64,000 nt of DNA, taken from the IMG/VR virus record IMGVR_UViG_2558860226_000001, positions 1 through 64,000 of that record; one strand, written 5' to 3'. The notes under the pieces were generated by a model. That model saw nothing but the letters and a program-made list of their open reading frames with translations, was not told where the DNA came from and searched no databases. This DNA is from a virus (Duplodnaviria > Caudoviricetes). Below, in pieces: positions 2,081 to 51,972 of the stretch. Positions within the stretch are counted from its first letter, which is position 1. Each line of letters opens with the position of its first letter. The translations under genes and the position numbers were made by a program.

Positions 2081-5053
2081 TTACTCTCTGTCTCTGAAAC
2101 TGCCACGCTGAAGCCTGTCGCGGCGGGCCAGTTCGGCACTGACTGCATCGGCCACAATACGGCCCAGCTCGCGGGCGTCCTGCCGTTCAACGCCGTGCAG
2201 GTGTATATGAATTTCCCCATTGAAACCGCCCGCCGCCGGTGTTCTGGCCGCCGGACGACTGACCGGGGACGCGTCGGCTTGTTTGACGGGCTGTGTCGCC
2301 GCAACCACGGCGGGGCGGTCGCTGAGCGCCTGCATGGTCTGCGCAGGCTGTGAGGGGGCAGAAGGTGTGCCGCCAGTAAGCCGGGATTCCTGCCATTCGC
2401 CACGCACAGCCAGCGCTTTCGGCAGGTTTTTGAAAACGATATCGCCGGGGCCGATGCGCTTTTTGGTTTCTTCCAGCACGCCGCCGGTGTTGTCAGCAAT
2501 CTTCTGCAAACGGCGCTGGGTACCGCTGTCCCCGGTCAGGGGTGGCTTAGGCGCGGGTGGTGGTGCGGTGGTGGCCTCTTTCAGGTCGCCGGTCAGGTTG
2601 GCGACCAGACCTTGCAGTCGGTCTTTCCCTTCCGGCGTCAGCTCTTTCAACTGATCGGCTTTTTTCTGCGCCGCATCCAGTCCGGACGGGATTAAACCGA
2701 GCTTTTCCAGAATCCAGCCGATCCCCTCCATCAGCTTTTGCAGCGGCAATAACAGCATGTCCAGTGCCGACCCCAGCACCTTGCCGAAACCGTAGCCCGC
2801 AACTGCGCAGTCATCCAGCGTCTTCTTTGTGGTCTGGATAGGCTGAAAAAGCTGCGTAAATCGATCCCACAGGCGCGACACGGCCGACACAATCACATCA
2901 AAGACGGGAGCCAGGCCCGTAAATGCCTGCCGAATGGGGCCAAGGCTGATAACAATGCCGGTAAACATCCCGCTGAAAAACGTTCTGACAGGCTCCCAGA
3001 ATCGCCAGATAAGCAGCCCGGCCGCCACAAACGCCGCGCCAATCAATCCGATCGGGCTTAACAGCAGCGACAGCACGCCGCCTAACACCGAGACAGCGCC
3101 GGTGATCAGGCTCCATAGCGCAGGCAGGCCGCTCAGCCGCAACAACAGCCCGCCTACGCCCCTGACCAGTGAACCCAATGCCGACACCGGCGAGGTAAAC
3201 ACGGCCAGTAACATGCCACGCAGCGGGGTCAGTGTCGCGGTCAGTCGGCCTGTGCTGCCAGAGAAAAGCTGTAGCCAGCCACCTATGCGTGCCATCGGCC
3301 CGCCGAGCAGGCTGCTTAACCCGGAAAACATCGACACCGCACCACCGACGCCCCGTGCGCCCAGCAGCAGCGAAAAGCCGAGCTGGAGCTTAGCCAGCGG
3401 ACCCATCAGCAGACCGATTGCCAGTGAGGTGCCACCGATCGCCACCGCGAATGCCGCCGCACCGCCGACAGCCAGTAACAGCGTTTGCGTCAGCCTGGGA
3501 TTCTCTTTCACCCAGCCGCTCACGTTGGTAATCACATCGCTTAGCCCCTGCGTCAGGTTGCGCAGTGGCCGGTCTGCCGTTTCTTCAACCTGAATACGAA
3601 ACCCTTCCCAGGCACTGTCGAGGTTTTTCAGGTCACCACCCAGGTTATCCGCCATCTTTTTACCAACGGTCGCCGATTCACCTTTAGCTTTTAGCAACTC
3701 CTGGAATAACTTATCCAGCTTGCCACTGCCTGCCGACTGAACCAGCGTTTGCAGACCGACAAAGGCCTCTTCCCCGGCAATATCTTTGAAGAAGGACACC
3801 TGATCGACCTGGCCGTATTTTTTGGTAGCTTTGTAGAGATCACGTAATACGTCCTGCATTGGCCGCATCTTGCCTTTGGCATCGGCTACCGACACGCCCA
3901 GCTCTTTCAATGCTTCCGCTGCGGCTTTCGGCGGTGAAGCCAGACGGGCCAGGCTGGCACGCATGGCGGTACCGGCATCACTGCCGCGAATACCGTTATT
4001 CGCCAGCATACCGGCCATCGCCGCCGCATATTCAAGGCTAATCCCCAGCTTGGCCGCCACCGGGCCGGTGTATTTCATGGTTTCGCCGAGGCTGAACAGG
4101 TCGGTGTTGGTACGGGTAAAGGTGCCGGTCAGTACGTCACCCACGCGATCCATCTGGCTGGCATCCAGATTGAACTGTGAAAGAATGTTTGACCCGATAT
4201 CAGCGGTTTCGCCCAGCTCCATGCCACCGGCCAGCGCCATATTCAGCACACCTGGCAATGCCGCTTGTATGGCCTGCGGCGTAAACCCGGCCATTGCCAG
4301 AAACGCCTGACCGCTGGCTGCGTCGCGGGTGGTGAATGCGGTTTCCGCGCCGAGCTTTTTGGCCTGCGCCCGCAGGGCCGCCAGTTGCTGATCGCCTTTA
4401 TCCAGCCGGGTCAGCGCCTGAACGCGTGACATCTCTTCATCAAACCCAACCGCCGGGGCCAGAAACTGCCCGCCTGCGTATCCGGCTGCCGCCCCGCCTG
4501 CTACCGCCATCGTGCCGCTACCACGTAGTTTGCCCGCGGTCTGCTGCATTCGCTCATAACGGGCGCGTGCCTGCGTAACGGCAGCCAGTTGCCGCCGCTC
4601 TCGCTCCAGGGTCTGGTTATATTGTTCGGTACGCCGGATGGCGCTCTGGATAGTGGCATTACTGCCAACCAGTGACACACCGTGACCGCGCAACGCTTGT
4701 GAGGCAGCGCGCAGCTTGACCATTTCCTGATCGCGGGTGATGTTCAGCCGCTCTAGTTTGACGGCCAGTGCGGCCATGTGTTCCCGTTGCTTATCGGTCA
4801 GCACAGTGTTGTTTTGCTGGGCCTTTTTCAGCCCGTCCAGGCTGCGGCTGGCTTCATCAATCTTGCGTGAGGTCTTTTGTACGCTGTCGCGCAGGCGGTT
4901 GAAGGTCCTGGACTGAGTGTCCAGATCCTTAATAGCGGCCTGGGTGCGTTTGAGGGATTCAGACAAACCGCCCGCACTCTGGCGGGCGGCGTTGACCGGG
5001 CGGGTCAGCCGGTCGATAGCGCTGAAGGCTACGCGGATATCAAGGCTTTTCAT
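2081..5053 (-). CDS. Tail tape measure protein (gpT-like)
   Basis: ~990 aa, Ala/Gly-rich TP901-type core; ATG at 5053 (MKSLDIRV). Confidence 0.92.
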   Translation of the reverse strand: MKSLDIRVAFSAIDRLTRPVNAARQSAGGLSESLKRTQAAIKDLDTQSRTFNRLRDSVQKTSRKIDEASRSLDGLKKAQQNNTVLTDKQREHMAALAVKLERLNITRDQEMVKLRAASQALRGHGVSLVGSNATIQSAIRRTEQYNQTLERERRQLAAVTQARARYERMQQTAGKLRGSGTMAVAGGAAAGYAGGQFLAPAVGFDEEMSRVQALTRLDKGDQQLAALRAQAKKLGAETAFTTRDAASGQAFLAMAGFTPQAIQAALPGVLNMALAGGMELGETADIGSNILSQFNLDASQMDRVGDVLTGTFTRTNTDLFSLGETMKYTGPVAAKLGISLEYAAAMAGMLANNGIRGSDAGTAMRASLARLASPPKAAAEALKELGVSVADAKGKMRPMQDVLRDLYKATKKYGQVDQVSFFKDIAGEEAFVGLQTLVQSAGSGKLDKLFQELLKAKGESATVGKKMADNLGGDLKNLDSAWEGFRIQVEETADRPLRNLTQGLSDVITNVSGWVKENPRLTQTLLLAVGGAAAFAVAIGGTSLAIGLLMGPLAKLQLGFSLLLGARGVGGAVSMFSGLSSLLGGPMARIGGWLQLFSGSTGRLTATLTPLRGMLLAVFTSPVSALGSLVRGVGGLLLRLSGLPALWSLITGAVSVLGGVLSLLLSPIGLIGAAFVAAGLLIWRFWEPVRTFFSGMFTGIVISLGPIRQAFTGLAPVFDVIVSAVSRLWDRFTQLFQPIQTTKKTLDDCAVAGYGFGKVLGSALDMLLLPLQKLMEGIGWILEKLGLIPSGLDAAQKKADQLKELTPEGKDRLQGLVANLTGDLKEATTAPPPAPKPPLTGDSGTQRRLQKIADNTGGVLEETKKRIGPGDIVFKNLPKALAVRGEWQESRLTGGTPSAPSQPAQTMQALSDRPAVVAATQPVKQADASPVSRPAARTPAAGGFNGEIHIHLHGVERQDARELGRIVADAVSAELARRDRLQRGSFRDRE

Positions 5054-46948: not shown

Positions 46949-47248
46949 TCAATTAAACGGGGCAATCCCGTATTTCGATGTGAATTGCGCGGTGGTGAGA
47001 TTAGTTACGGTGCCGGTAGTGTTATCGCCGACATAAACCGCTTCACCAGATTTCGCCATCATGAACGGAAAAAATGATTTATTTCTTGTCTGGCAGAGCC
47101 GCGCCCAAAACGCCAGCAGCGGTGATGCCGGCTGAAATGACAAGCGCCTAGCAGATTCCTCTGAGCAGCCAAGACGCAAGGCAACGCCAGCAACAGATAG
47201 CCCACCACCCCAGTAAAGCGCAGTCAACAGCTCCTTAGTCACTTCCAT
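46949..47248 (-). pseudogene. Chimeric remnant (HTH-like start joined to unrelated tail)
   Basis: LLTALYW.GGLSV..VA.RLGCS then abrupt change in sequence character. Confidence 0.4.
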
Positions 47249-47628
47249 TCGATATCACCCTCAACGCCTTTGGCTCTTAGCTGCCGCTCTACTTCTGCTC
47301 GGATATCGACTCGCCAAAGGTCTCGGCTTTTCGGGAACCCCGACCCGTACACCCATGCGATCATGTCGCGGATTTCAAATCCTGCGTCCTCAATACGCGC
47401 AGCCATTCGATGCTGTGTACGTGTACCAGCAAACGCTAGCAGGTGGCCGCCAGGCTTCAAAACGCGCAGACATTCAGCCCAGACATCAACGTCTGGCACA
47501 TCGTAGTCCCATTTTTTACCCATGAATTTCAGGCCGTAAGGCGGGTCAGTAATGATGCTATCGACTGAGCTCTCTGGCATTGTGCGCAGTACATCTAAAC
47601 AGTCGGAGTTGTGCAATGTGTAGGTCAT
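47239..47628 (-). pseudogene. N-terminal half of a beta-class N6A/N4C DNA methyltransferase
   Basis: DCL..L..M...SVDSIITDPPY..LKPGG..GFPKS; no FxGxG half. Confidence 0.8.
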
Positions 47629-49555: not shown

Positions 49556-49598
49556 CCGTTAGGCGGCCAGAGAATTAGCGCCCGTGGAGCGCGGAAAT

Positions 49599-49723
49599 AA
49601 AAAACCCCAGCAATTGAGCTGGGGTTTGAATTCTTTTTATTGCTACAAATAAATCCAGTACAATAACAACACGCAATTTCCGCATTGTTGTGCTTATATT
49701 AACCAAATCTATTCAGGTGTCAA
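49599..49723 (-). promoter_or_regulatory. Candidate late promoter pR' and terminator tR'
   Basis: TTGACA at 49718-23 with TAATAT 16 nt downstream; hairpin ccccagc/gctgggg + U-tract at 49599-49627 before the holin. Confidence 0.5.
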
Positions 49724-49776
49724 TATATACAAAATAAAAACCCCGCTGGAGCGGCGTGTACTGGGTTGTCATGGGT

Positions 49777-49958
49777 TTATATGTTTTCTTCATCCAGAAT
49801 CTCAACGATTTTCCCAGTTTTTTCTATCGGATTGCCATTCTCATCGCGCAAGTGGACATTAAGAGTCTCTCCGATAAAATCATTCAGGTCGCCGTCGATT
49901 GTGTCTTCATTAACTGTACCAACGGTGTCATCATCCAGCAAAACTGTCCATTTTTCAT
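49777..49958 (-). CDS. Unannotated 60-aa acidic protein, candidate anti-CRISPR; one A missing in the run after ATG
   Basis: Restoring A6 gives MKKWTVLLDDDTVGTVNEDTIDGDLNDFIGETLNVHLRDENGNPIEKTGKIVEILDEENI; SD, promoter and terminator present. Confidence 0.6.
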
Positions 49959-50010
49959 GATGTAGCCCTTATTTGTGATTGAATGTGTGTCGCTTCGTCT
50001 TGATGGCTTC

Positions 50011-50039
50011 AATATAACCCCTTAATGGTTATGTGTCAA
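50011..50039 (-). promoter_or_regulatory. Promoter with Aca-type operator (copy 2)
   Basis: TTGACA-N17-TATATT enclosing ATAACC-N7-GGTTAT. Confidence 0.75.
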
Positions 50040-50051
50040 CGTGCGGATGGT

Positions 50052-50234
50052 TTATTTTGTGACGGGTATCTCTCTTCTGACGGTGCAGAGGAATGCCCTT
50101 CCATCATCGTCGATGTGGACTATCGTTTCAGACGATAGCCACTTTGTGATTTTTTGTGGTGGAACACCCATGTGGCGAGCGAATTCTGCCCGGCTACCGC
50201 CAAAATTCTGATCGATGTAATCGGCTAATTTCAT
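50052..50234 (-). CDS. Anti-CRISPR-associated HTH repressor, Aca5-like
   Basis: YID.NFGG.RAEFARHMGV..Q...KW...VRREIP; directly after the acrIF11-like gene. Confidence 0.75.
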   Translation of the reverse strand: MKLADYIDQNFGGSRAEFARHMGVPPQKITKWLSSETIVHIDDDGRAFLCTVRREIPVTK

Positions 50235-50235
50235 A

Positions 50236-50733
50236 TTATTCTGCCGTTATTTTTGGGTTAACGATTAAATAACTGGTGCCGTGCTCGTCTCTCATTTCTA
50301 CAGCATCAAAACCAAGGTGCGCCGCAACGCGACCGCGTAGGCGTTGAATTTCCCACGAATATGCACCCCCGATATCAGATCCGAGCCGAGGAAATAACAA
50401 TACATCAGCAAATTCATCATCTTGATTTTCGTCATCAACTATTGCGCGGGCTAATTCATTAACTCTATCCATGTTTTCAGAATTAATTTCATATTGATCG
50501 AGCAGAAATCTTACTATCTCCTCAAAATTGGCATCCAAGTCGCGTGATTCAGCCACCCTTTCTTCATCAACAATATATGTAAAAATGTTACCGTTTCCGT
50601 GGGATGCCGCTGCGTCCCAGTCGCCGCTGGCAAAGATGCCATCAAATACGTTTTCGCTAGCACCGAGCATTTCGAATGCGCCAACTTTTATTGCTGGAGC
50701 TACGGTACTGCATGAGCCGTGAAACAGTTTCAT
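50236..50733 (-). CDS. acrIF11: AcrIF11-family anti-CRISPR ADP-ribosyltransferase
   Basis: LFHGS, VFDGIF, A.SHG, WEIQRLRG..A..LG...VEM.DEHGT motifs match AcrIF11 as recalled. Confidence 0.85.
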   Translation of the reverse strand: MKLFHGSCSTVAPAIKVGAFEMLGASENVFDGIFASGDWDAAASHGNGNIFTYIVDEERVAESRDLDANFEEIVRFLLDQYEINSENMDRVNELARAIVDDENQDDEFADVLLFPRLGSDIGGAYSWEIQRLRGRVAAHLGFDAVEMRDEHGTSYLIVNPKITAE

Positions 50734-50765: not shown

Positions 50766-50794
50766 ACTATAACCACTTTATGGTTATACATCAA
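50766..50794 (-). promoter_or_regulatory. acr promoter with Aca-type operator (copy 1)
   Basis: TTGATG-N17-TATAGT enclosing ATAACC-N7-GGTTAT. Confidence 0.75.
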
Positions 50795-50891: not shown

Positions 50892-51704
50892 TTAACTGGT
50901 AACGCGCCTCAAATTAATCTCTGCAGTTGATTCCGCCTGATGACACGCCGAAACGAGCCGCTCATACATCGGTTTTACATGGCGTGACCATGTCGGCTGT
51001 GATATCTCAACGCCAGCGGCACATAGCGCCCTGCGGACGCTCTCAGCTGGCAATCGAGAGTATCCAGTGCCGTGGCACCGCTCACATTCTTTTGTCACCG
51101 GTATTCCGCCATTTATCGCTGTAGCCCGCTCATCAATCACAATTCCGCGTCCACGGCACCGGCATGAATTACTGACCAACCCCCTTCCTTTGCAGGTCGG
51201 GCATTGCACACGGACTATCTCGCGCCGTTCGTGAGTAACATTGCAAGCTAGCGGTTTATCCAGCATTTCGATTTTCGGCATAGCATCAATGACGCGTTTT
51301 CCATACGCCGCCTTCAGACTGAACACCTCCACGTCGATAAACCCATCATCGCAGTCAGGGCAACGCTTTACGCTTGCAGCACTACGCGCATAGTCATGAT
51401 ATGCAAATGTTGCGAGCAATTGCAGCGCTCGCAGTTTACTATCTGCATCGAGTTCTGAAAGAGGTTTGCAGTGTCCCGCCAGACTTTTTGCAATCTCTAT
51501 CAACCCCTCAATGGCTTTATCAGGGCTGCTTACCCCGATTTTAGCGAGAAACAAATCCATCCCAATGCCGCTAGATTGGTGACTCATGCCGATAGCGGCC
51601 ATCACATCACTGATACCTAATCTGTCGCTTGCTGTTGCCGGTGATTCGTCGGAGAGTTTTGGTGATTTCGGCGAGAAAAATTTAGGAATTGATTCTAGAT
51701 TCAC
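50892..51704 (-). CDS. Late antiterminator Q (Cys-rich type)
   Basis: NLES..KFFSPKS..DVMAAIG..DYARSAAS; CxxC clusters; end of nin region. Confidence 0.87.
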   Translation of the reverse strand: MNLESIPKFFSPKSPKLSDESPATASDRLGISDVMAAIGMSHQSSGIGMDLFLAKIGVSSPDKAIEGLIEIAKSLAGHCKPLSELDADSKLRALQLLATFAYHDYARSAASVKRCPDCDDGFIDVEVFSLKAAYGKRVIDAMPKIEMLDKPLACNVTHERREIVRVQCPTCKGRGLVSNSCRCRGRGIVIDERATAINGGIPVTKECERCHGTGYSRLPAESVRRALCAAGVEISQPTWSRHVKPMYERLVSACHQAESTAEINLRRVTS

Positions 51705-51972
51705 TTGGATTTCCTCCGCTCTGGATATGCATCCCATGACTGATAATGCGCCGGTTTAACCGCCGGAATTATTGGTGCAAACAAAGTCAGAATGTAAGGA
51801 AGATATTTCATGATTTATCACCCTTGTTCAGTGAGTATCGATTGATAATTTCCCGGCGGCGCTCATTTTTCCACTCAATCGACTTTTCATGATCGGATAT
51901 TTCTTTTTCCAGTCTAAGTAATTCCGCTGTCACATGCGTAGGGATTTTATCGATCATAATCCACCTCGGTAT

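What the first reader, a model, noticed from the sequence alone, without database searches (positions are those of the whole stretch)
49777..50039. Hidden anti-CRISPR candidate under a second copy of the Aca operator-promoter
Seen: the promoter before the acrIF11-like gene (TTGATG-N17-TATAGT) and a second promoter after the aca gene (TTGACA-N17-TATATT) both enclose ATAACC-N7-GGTTAT and share a downstream GCCATCAA-ACGA tract. The second drives an ORF absent from the ORF track: 60 aa, 16 Asp/Glu, with an SD and its own terminator. It needs one extra A in the A5 run after ATG (assembly slip, slippage switch or pseudogene). Known: Aca proteins repress acr promoters through inverted repeats, and many Acrs are small and acidic. 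Inference: a co-regulated anti-defence protein that I cannot match to a named Acr family.
Basis: partly seen in the sequence, partly recalled or inferred. Interest (0 to 1): 0.85.

Follow-up and report, generated by a model that had tools for sequence, protein, structure and literature searches.

The report
Frameshifted Aca5-controlled small acidic phage gene
Just after the anti-CRISPR regulator gene aca5 of a Dickeya prophage lies a real but frameshifted gene for a 60-residue acidic protein with its own copy of the Aca5 operator-promoter; it belongs to a widespread, unnamed phage protein family that also sits in another Aca-type operon, so it is a good untested anti-defence candidate.

Summary
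Two sigma-70 promoters each enclose ATAACC-N7-GGTTAT. This palindrome occurs exactly twice in 64 kb (0.12 expected).

The second promoter precedes an ORF that needs one more A in an A5 run. Two related prophage loci (L001, L005) carry A6 and an intact 60-aa gene, 94-98% identical, behind aca5 and the same promoter. Two assemblies with this sequence both read A5, so the gene is probably a true pseudogene here.

The neighbouring genes are an AcrIF11 homologue and an Aca5 homologue. L001 carries AcrIF20 and AcrIF17-type genes instead.

A profile search shows that the protein belongs to a large unnamed family of about 60-aa acidic proteins in phages. It has no Pfam, PHROG or PDB relative, and its confident model is a small SH3-like beta fold.

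In marine contigs a homologue is the first gene of an operon. That operon starts at a published-type Aca4 operator and ends with an Aca4-like repressor.

Best reading (0.55): an Aca-co-regulated anti-defence gene, inactivated in this strain. Function and target are untested. A 2026 survey found neighbour-operon regulation for every Aca family except Aca5 and Aca7, so this locus would supply an Aca5 example.

The parts
50892..51737 (-). Late antiterminator Q gene (281 aa). It marks the upstream border of the accessory-gene slot.
   Evidence: Pfam Antiterm 3.5e-38 and phrog_127 1.5e-82.
50766..50794 (-). Promoter 1, TTGATG-N17-TATAGT, enclosing operator ATAACC-N7-GGTTAT at 50769-50787.
   Evidence: Homologous promoters stand in front of the acr cargo in L001, L005, L029 and L034.
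50236..50733 (-). acrIF11 homologue (165 aa), a predicted anti-CRISPR ADP-ribosyltransferase.
   Evidence: NCBIfam NF052490 at 2.1e-33, 116 bits against a cut-off of 50. PDB 6kyf AcrF11 at 3.5e-10. PF26151 in the precomputed gene tables.
50052..50234 (-). aca5 homologue (60-aa HTH repressor). Its ATG starts 1 bp after the acrIF11 stop.
   Evidence: 54% identity, E 2e-25, to the Aca5 reference WP_039494319.1 (sequence taken from the supplement of PMC9410906). Weak HTH_28/HTH_3/YdaS Pfam hits.
50011..50039 (-). Promoter 2, TTGACA-N17-TATATT, enclosing the second operator at 50014-50032. It is followed by the shared leader tract GCCATCAAGACGA at 50007-49995.
   Evidence: No terminator was predicted between aca5 and this promoter, so promoter 1 transcripts should also read through.
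49966..49970 (-). Shine-Dalgarno-like AAGGG, 7 nt before the ATG.
   Evidence: Read directly. Identical in L001 and L005.
49951..49958 (-). Start codon ATG (49958-49956) and the A5 run (49955-49951), which is the site of the 1-nt deletion relative to the A6 alleles.
   Evidence: The alignment of the window, L006 and L007 (A5) with L001 and L005 (A6) is. The contig of run X1, which is the source of L005, also shows the extra base.
49777..49950 (-). Body of the small acidic protein gene in the conserved frame, residues 4-60 of the intact form, with stop TAA at 49779-49777. As the sequence stands, only the 54 codons from TTG 49941 are open.
   Evidence: The AF2 model has pLDDT 90. Purifying selection is shown.
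49730..49752 (-). Intrinsic terminator of the small gene (hairpin 49752-49740 plus T-run). Similarity to L001 and L005 ends here.
49596..49723 (-). PR'-like late promoter (TTGACA-N16-TAATAT, 49723-49696) with a leader and strong terminator (49627-49602) before the holin gene. It marks the downstream border of the slot.
   Evidence: The holin is phrog_6384 at 3.5e-18. Rfam gave only sub-threshold leader-like hits.

Best explanation
The stretch is a genuine small gene. In its intact form it encodes 60 aa with a net charge of about -11 and a predicted small SH3-like beta fold. It forms a second transcription unit of the prophage's anti-CRISPR locus, between the late antiterminator Q gene and the late promoter.

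Proposed mechanism. On infection or induction, two strong sigma-70 promoters fire. Promoter 1 drives acrIF11 and aca5, and reads on into the small gene because no terminator intervenes. Promoter 2 adds further transcription of the small gene. Aca5 then accumulates and binds the ATAACC-N7-GGTTAT palindrome between -35 and -10 of both promoters, shutting both down together. The small acidic protein most likely acts as a stoichiometric inhibitor of a host defence component. That could be an anti-CRISPR or another anti-defence activity.

In this strain a 1-nt deletion in the A6 run directly after the ATG shifts the frame after codon 3, so the gene is probably a pseudogene.

What is shown: the gene is real and under purifying selection; the promoter-operator is duplicated; Aca5 and AcrIF11 are identified by homology; the module lies in acr loci; and there is a second, independent link to an Aca4-type operon.

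What is inferred: Aca5 binds at promoter 2, and the protein has an anti-defence function with some target.
For: The gene is real:
- Intact 60-aa alleles with A6 lie in L001 and L005, 94-98% identical.
- Substitutions are 6 synonymous against 1-2 non-synonymous. The chance of at least 6 synonymous among 8 changes under neutrality is 0.002.
- Every homologue has an N-terminal strand (xYTV) upstream of the point where the window's open frame begins.
- The profile search found 344 representatives at E<=1e-3. Most of the 150 listed are 50-90-aa proteins matched over their whole length.
- The 37 members I aligned have a median net charge of -8.

Regulation:
- The palindrome occurs exactly twice in 64 kb, both times inside a promoter.
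- The -35, operator, -10 and leader tract align across 8 promoters from 5 loci.
- The published Aca5 operator is an inverted repeat, ATAatCaa-N3-TtGatTAT, between -35 and -10, with T or C at position 5 of the motif matrix.
- Members of each Aca family, Aca5 included, repressed their cognate promoters in E. coli reporters (PMC9410906).

Locus type:
- AcrIF11 and Aca5 are present here.
- The L001 cargo is listed among AcrIF20 and AcrIF17-type orthologues in the supplement of PMC7648647.

Independent association:
- In L003, L004 and L047 the palindrome TACACC-N6-GGTGTA overlaps the -10. It occurs once in the locus against 0.01 expected and resembles the published Aca4 motif.
- It precedes a family member, then a 118-aa gene, then a KorA-type HTH (Pfam KORA 1.1e-7) that is 40% identical to a published Aca4 homologue.
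- Small HTH genes lie directly downstream in L048/L049 and L051, and two genes downstream in L068 and L020. One lies directly upstream in L054.

Pseudogene status: the window, L006 and L007 all read A5.
Against: - There are no functional data for any member of the family.
- No similarity to any known Acr was found by sequence or fold. The best PDB match is Z 3.5 to SH3-like domains, which is within noise.
- Most family members lie at varied module borders of phage genomes with no detectable aca-like neighbour. Small HTH genes are common in phages, and I measured no background rate.
- The family is far more conserved and widespread than a typical Acr family, which may point to another target or role.
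- The promoter 2 arrangement was found in only three loci. L029 has the same type of Aca5 and promoter 1 but no promoter 2.
- L006 and L007 are probably the same strain: assembly sizes match NCPPB 569 and CP042220 is NCPPB 569T. They are therefore two sequencing efforts on one isolate, and no raw reads could be examined.
Confidence: 0.55

Rival explanations
1. The gene is real and controlled by Aca5, but its product is not a defence inhibitor. It could be a partner or antagonist of small DNA-binding regulators (an anti-repressor-like modulator of Aca proteins), a host-takeover factor, or a superinfection-exclusion factor that happens to ride in accessory-gene slots.
For: - Family members sit next to small DNA-binding genes of several unrelated families (Aca5, KorA/Aca4-like, XRE HTH), as a regulator partner could.
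- The wide distribution and strong conservation of the DENGNPIE hairpin are unusual for Acrs.
- Many copies lie beside head, terminase or lysis modules without any acr gene.
Against: - A partner specific to one regulator would not be expected beside regulators of unrelated folds.
- Its position as first gene of an Aca4-type operon, and under an Aca5 operator in loci packed with validated Acr families, is the pattern that has repeatedly led to new Acrs (PMC7648647).
- Its small size and strong acidity fit known stoichiometric inhibitors (my own knowledge).
Confidence: 0.3
2. The A5 allele is not dead. The product could be made by slippage at the A run (a phase-variable or recoding switch). Or a 54-aa form could start at TTG 49941 and remain active.
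For: - The lesion lies in a homopolymer directly after the ATG, a classic site for reversible slippage.
- The rest of the frame is fully intact, with no second lesion.
- A GGA lies a few bases before the TTG.
Against: - A run of 5-6 A is short for transcriptional slippage, and G-AAA-AAT is not a canonical slippery heptamer (my own knowledge).
- The 54-aa form lacks most of predicted strand 1 (residues 2-8), which every homologue keeps.
- Ribosomes starting at the well-placed ATG would end at TGA 49886-49884, out of frame.
- A neighbouring methyltransferase gene is also truncated, which fits a decaying prophage.
Confidence: 0.1
3. Promoter 2 and the ORF are an inert duplication remnant, and the open frame and repeated palindrome carry no function.
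For: - The public gene tables call only the 54-aa open piece from TTG 49941, never the full 60-aa gene, and give it no Pfam family. In one assembly a 69-aa antisense ORF is also called over it.
- The stretch is short.
Against: - Intact homologues under purifying selection exist.
- Hundreds of family members were found across distant taxa.
- The AF2 model is confident, with pLDDT 90.
- The promoter, operator, SD and terminator are all conserved as one cassette in three loci.
Confidence: 0.03

Closest known systems
acr-aca5 loci of Pectobacteriaceae prophages (Pinilla-Redondo et al. 2020, PMC7648647; Shehreen et al. 2022, PMC9410906)
   Same: Both have shuffled small acr genes (here AcrIF11; AcrIF20 and AcrIF17-type in L001) upstream of a fixed 60-aa Aca5. 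Both have an inverted repeat between -35 and -10 of a strong promoter. Both sit in a prophage.
   Different: Those studies took candidates only from upstream of aca5. Here a further gene lies downstream of aca5 under its own second copy of the operator-promoter. The half-site is ATAACC rather than the consensus ATAATC. The small protein's motifs are absent from the supplements of both papers.
Aca proteins predicted or shown to co-regulate neighbouring operons (PMC13551039, NAR 2026; Aca11 and Aca13 are cited there as shown experimentally)
   Same: One Aca gene and two binding sites in front of two adjacent transcription units. The second unit carries a gene of unknown function, proposed to be anti-defence.
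   Different: That survey reports examples for all Aca families except Aca5 and Aca7. This locus would be an Aca5 example. Here promoter 1 transcripts probably also read through into the second unit.
acr-aca4 operons (Aca4 = KorA/TrfB-type HTH; published motif GTACACCCTTAAAGGAGTATAATCA)
   Same: In L003, L004 and L047, a family member is the first gene behind TACACC-N6-GGTGTA overlapping TATAAT. The operon ends with a KorA-type HTH that is 40% identical to a listed Aca4 homologue.
   Different: These are marine metagenome contigs, not Pseudomonas, and no known acr gene is in that operon. Membership of the HTH in Aca4 rests on one pairwise match and the Pfam KORA hit.
Small acidic stoichiometric inhibitors of defence proteins, such as DNA-mimic Acrs and Ocr/ArdA-type anti-restriction proteins (my own knowledge)
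   Same: Very small, strongly acidic, phage-encoded, and placed in accessory-gene slots.
   Different: No sequence or fold similarity was found. The predicted fold is a small SH3-like beta structure, and there is no evidence of DNA mimicry.

Membership tests
Aca5 (for the 60-aa HTH at 50052-50234) | Sequence homology to the Aca5 reference WP_039494319.1 and a similar length (about 60 aa) | tested here: met
   54% identity over 57 of 60 residues, E 2e-25. Published Dickeya Aca5 homologues show the same motifs.
Aca5 (for the 60-aa HTH at 50052-50234) | Encoded directly downstream of acr genes in a mobile element | tested here: met
   It starts 1 bp after the AcrIF11 homologue, in a lambdoid prophage.
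Aca5 (for the 60-aa HTH at 50052-50234) | Inverted-repeat operator between -35 and -10 of the acr promoter | tested here: met
   ATAACC-N7-GGTTAT lies inside promoter 1. It has the same layout as the published ATAatCaa-N3-TtGatTAT, with a variant half-site.
Aca5 (for the 60-aa HTH at 50052-50234) | Represses its promoter | not testable with these tools
   Shown for a P. parmentieri homologue in E. coli reporters (PMC9410906), not for this protein.
AcrIF11 (for the 165-aa protein at 50236-50733) | Match to the curated family model above its cut-off | tested here: met
   NF052490 at 116 bits against a cut-off of 50. 6kyf at E 3.5e-10.
Anti-CRISPR protein, generic (for the small acidic protein) | Small protein encoded in or next to an aca operon of a mobile element | tested here: met
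   It lies behind aca5 in three loci. It is the first gene of an Aca4-type operon in L003.
Anti-CRISPR protein, generic (for the small acidic protein) | Promoter carries the operator of the neighbouring Aca | tested here: met
Anti-CRISPR protein, generic (for the small acidic protein) | Homology to a named Acr family | tested here: not met
   No hit in NCBIfam, Pfam, PHROGs or PDB sequences, none in the Acr supplements of two papers, and no fold match above noise.
Anti-CRISPR protein, generic (for the small acidic protein) | Inhibits a CRISPR-Cas system | not testable with these tools
   This needs targeting assays with the intact allele.
Aca-co-regulated neighbouring operon (PMC13551039) | One Aca family on the contig and binding motifs in front of at least two transcription units | tested here: met
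   There are two exact operator copies in two promoters and one aca5 gene. The same holds in L001 and L005.
Type II toxin-antitoxin pair (considered for the small protein plus its adjacent DNA-binding gene) | A toxin domain paired with a DNA-binding antitoxin in one operon | tested here: inconclusive
   No toxin family matched. A strongly acidic 60-aa protein is unlike known toxins (my own knowledge). Adjacent HTH and RHH-like genes exist in several loci.

The most novel reading that the evidence does not exclude
The roughly 60-aa acidic family is a new, widely distributed phage anti-defence family. It has been recruited under at least two different Aca-type regulators (Aca5 and Aca4-like), and its unusual conservation reflects a conserved host target. 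The Dickeya cassette would be the first case of Aca5 controlling a second transcription unit.
Probability: 0.35. Interest if true: 0.75.

Novelty: new member of a known kind. Interest (0 to 1): 0.55.

Why it matters
Searches for anti-CRISPRs anchored on aca5 looked only upstream of the regulator. This locus shows that a gene downstream, with its own operator copy, can be missed. Here it was missed twice over, because gene callers report only a 54-aa fragment of the frameshifted gene.

The protein opens access to a large unnamed family of small acidic phage proteins that can be tested directly with the intact alleles. If it inhibits a defence system, its breadth and conservation would make it unusual among Acr-like proteins.

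The locus also offers an Aca5 example for the recently proposed rule that Aca repressors coordinate several anti-defence operons.

Tried and rejected
Searches that found nothing:
- tblastn of the 54-aa piece against 50,697 phage records gave no match. blastn of the locus matched only the acrIF11/aca5 part in three phage records.
- Pfam, PHROGs and NCBIfam, on single sequences and on 37 family members, returned no family. The only hits were weak Invasin_D3, Big and CshA-repeat matches on the DENGNP hairpin.
- PDB searches by sequence and by profile found nothing significant.
- Fold searches: Foldseek against PDB found nothing at E<=1e-3. VIA-align wide gave a best Z of 3.5 (KorB C-terminal domain, SH3-like). 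BFVD returned only uncharacterised phage proteins. The ESM Atlas gave no usable feature hit.

Hits I set aside:
- Giant proteins of 2000-6000 aa in the profile search match only short stretches of the hairpin motif. I treated them as motif-level matches, not relatives.

Reads and expression:
- Sequencing runs: no run holds this strain and no RNA holder is listed. The four runs laid were contigs of relatives only. The A-run therefore could not be checked in raw reads, and expression could not be assessed.

- The record holds no host DNA, so host CRISPR types and self-targeting spacers could not be examined.

Other dead ends:
- The search for related loci with the broad alignment A3 had no usable conserved stretch.
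- Three look-ups of family members returned contigs under 1.3 kb, which are uninformative.
- Inverted repeats of 12 nt or more were not found upstream of six other family members.
- RHH-like neighbours that I suspected by eye in L058, L056, L024 and L002 were not confirmed by Pfam.
- Rfam found no RNA family over the ORF.

Ideas rejected:
- Programmed frameshifting or slippage is unlikely, because the run is short and the context is not canonical.
- An AbrB/MazE-like swapped-hairpin reading was considered from the order of secondary-structure elements. No search supports it.

Full report
**Setting.** The window is part of a 100,779-base virus record. The same sequence occurs in two Dickeya genome assemblies. 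One of them, CP042220, is D. poaceiphila NCPPB 569T. The other, CM001975.1, has the assembly size reported for the 2013 draft of NCPPB 569, so they are probably the same strain. That last point is my inference.

On the minus strand the order is as follows:
- late antiterminator Q gene (50892-51737)
- promoter 1
- a 165-aa gene
- a 60-aa HTH gene
- promoter 2
- the ORF in question
- a terminator
- a PR'-like late promoter with its own terminator
- holin and endolysin genes

The stretch therefore lies in the accessory-gene slot between Q and the late promoter of a lambdoid prophage.

**Observation.**
- Promoter 1 is TTGATG-N17-TATAGT (50794-50766). Promoter 2 is TTGACA-N17-TATATT (50039-50011) and matches 11 of 12 consensus positions.
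- ATAACC-N7-GGTTAT occurs exactly twice in 64 kb, each time between a -35 and a -10. With one mismatch allowed, 0.12 matches are expected.
- Both promoters are followed by GCCATCAA(A/G)ACGA.
- Behind promoter 2 come AAGGG, then 7 nt, then ATG (49958-49956) and five A (49955-49951).
- As the sequence stands, this ATG opens a 24-codon ORF in the wrong frame. The conserved frame is open only from TTG 49941, giving 54 aa.
- A hairpin with a T-run follows the stop codon.

**The gene is real and is broken here.** A search of viral contigs found L001. Its cargo proteins are listed as D. chrysanthemi proteins in a published supplement. L001 has ATG followed by six A and an intact 60-aa ORF, 94% identical to the window's. 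A soil metagenome contig, L005, carries the same intact gene.

Aligned together, the window and both genome assemblies read A5, while L001 and L005 read A6. Otherwise the roughly 310-bp cassette from promoter 2 to the terminator is nearly identical, and similarity stops right after the terminator.

Differences in the coding part are 6 synonymous against 1-2 non-synonymous. The chance of that many synonymous changes under neutrality is 0.002. All homologues carry an N-terminal strand (xYTV) that the window's open frame lacks.

I conclude that there is a 1-nt deletion in a homopolymer. It was seen in two sequencing efforts on what is probably one strain, so it is most likely a true pseudogene. 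Raw reads of the strain were not available. A nearby methyltransferase gene is truncated as well.

**The neighbours.**
- The 165-aa protein is an AcrIF11 family member: NF052490 at 116 bits against a cut-off of 50, and 6kyf at E 3.5e-10.
- The HTH protein is 54% identical (E 2e-25) to the Aca5 reference.
- The published Aca5 operator is an inverted repeat, ATAatCaa-N3-TtGatTAT, between -35 and -10. Its motif matrix allows T or C at position 5. The palindrome here has the same layout with the C variant.
- Aca5 repressed its cognate promoter in reporter assays (PMC9410906).
- In L001 the cargo in front of aca5 is different. Two of its four genes are listed among AcrIF20 and AcrIF17-type orthologues. 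In L005 the cargo is two unknown small genes.
- Across these loci promoter 1 and promoter 2 align in -35, operator, -10 and the first transcribed bases.
- No terminator is predicted between aca5 and promoter 2, so the small gene should be transcribed from both promoters, and both carry the operator.

**The protein family.** The word-based search found only 8 clusters. A profile search of 1.84 billion representatives found 344 proteins at E<=1e-3.
- Most of the 150 listed hits are 50-90-aa proteins matched end to end. Their shared pattern is xYTVxLxDGTVGTIxxDTLDGQxAxxFIGExVxVHLxDENGNPIExxGxLxEVLE.
- The remainder are giant adhesin-like proteins that match only the DENGNP hairpin many times. I do not count these as relatives.
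- The 37 small members I aligned are uniformly acidic, with a median net charge of -8.
- No Pfam, PHROG, NCBIfam or PDB family matches.
- The AlphaFold2 model is confident (pLDDT 90): four strands and a short helix forming a small SH3-like beta structure.
- It has no convincing structural relative. The best PDB match is Z 3.5, and BFVD returns only uncharacterised phage proteins.

**Contexts elsewhere.** About 45 further loci were fetched.

The clearest case is L003/L004/L047, marine metagenome contigs.
- A promoter there has the perfect palindrome TACACC-N6-GGTGTA overlapping TATAAT. It occurs once in the locus against 0.01 expected.
- It closely resembles the published Aca4 motif GTACACCCTTAAAGGAGTATAATCA.
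- The promoter is followed by a family member, a 118-aa gene, and a KorA-type HTH. The HTH hits Pfam KORA above its cut-off and is 40% identical to a published Aca4 homologue.
- This is the canonical acr-acr-aca arrangement, with the family member in an acr position.

Other links to small regulators:
- In L048/L049 and L051, a Pfam-confirmed HTH_3 gene lies directly downstream.
- In L068 (MqsA-like) and L020 (HTH_8; weakly Aca5-like), an HTH gene lies two genes downstream.
- In L054, an HTH gene lies directly upstream.
- In L011, a weak TacA-like RHH match lies downstream.

Many other copies lie at borders of head, terminase or lysis modules with no recognisable regulator. I measured no background rate for small HTH genes in phages. 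Only the two operator-backed cases carry real weight.

**Interpretation.** The best-supported reading is an accessory gene co-repressed with acrIF11 by Aca5. It most likely encodes a stoichiometric inhibitor of a host defence component, and it is inactivated in this strain. I put the parts as follows:
- the gene is real: about 0.97
- it is controlled by Aca5: about 0.8
- it has an anti-defence function: about 0.55
- it is specifically an anti-CRISPR: about 0.35

The main rival is a different function, for example a modulator of small repressors. The family's breadth and conservation, and its frequent pairing with unrelated DNA-binding proteins, support that rival. An active A5 allele produced by slippage or by a TTG start is unlikely, and an inert remnant is very unlikely.

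**Comparison with what is known.** acr-aca5 loci are well described, but candidates were taken only from upstream of aca5 (PMC7648647). The idea that Aca proteins also control neighbouring operons was published in 2026. That survey found examples for every family except Aca5 and Aca7 (PMC13551039). The mechanism is therefore of a known kind. The new points are the Aca5 example, the position downstream of aca, and the unnamed protein family.

The scan's own earlier notes on this genome describe the same stretch and the neighbouring acrIF11-aca5 pair. They add nothing beyond what I tested here.

**Limits.** No experiment, no raw reads, no RNA data and no host genome were available.

Noticed in passing
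window 47239-47628 (-): A DNA methyltransferase gene matches only positions 1-91 of the 221-position N6_N4_Mtase profile, in an open frame of about 130 aa. It looks truncated, which would make it a second broken gene near the lysis cassette.
   Followed up: partly
L006 and L007 gene tables (equivalent to window 50052-50234): Neither public genome assembly's gene table calls the 60-aa aca5 gene. Both list only the 54-aa fragment of the small gene, so automated annotation under-calls this acr locus.
   Followed up: partly
L001:3220-3303 and L001:4133-4216: An 84-nt element is repeated with 100% identity. It contains TTGACA followed by a perfect 26-nt palindrome, CATTGTGCCTAAATTTAGGCACAATG. The two copies stand in front of two different gene sets, just downstream of the small gene and before the holin. 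This looks like a second duplicated operator-promoter system of unknown regulator.
   Followed up: partly
L057:3001-3425: A family member (59 aa) is followed directly by a divergent 81-aa paralogue with the same RDENG hairpin. This is a tandem duplication of the family in a metagenomic phage contig.
   Followed up: no
window 49596-49723 (-): A PR'-like late promoter (TTGACA-N16-TAATAT) has a roughly 100-nt leader ending in a 10-bp GC-rich terminator before the holin gene. This is the expected target of the Q antiterminator. Rfam gave only sub-threshold leader-like hits.
   Followed up: partly
L029 (IMGVR_UViG_2775506966_000002), site at 3757-3785 (-): Another Q / promoter 1 (ATAACC-type operator) / 76-aa unknown gene / Aca5 locus. 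Its Aca5 is identical to a published D. fangzhongdai homologue. The 76-aa acidic gene is an untested acr candidate, and there is no promoter 2 here.
   Followed up: no
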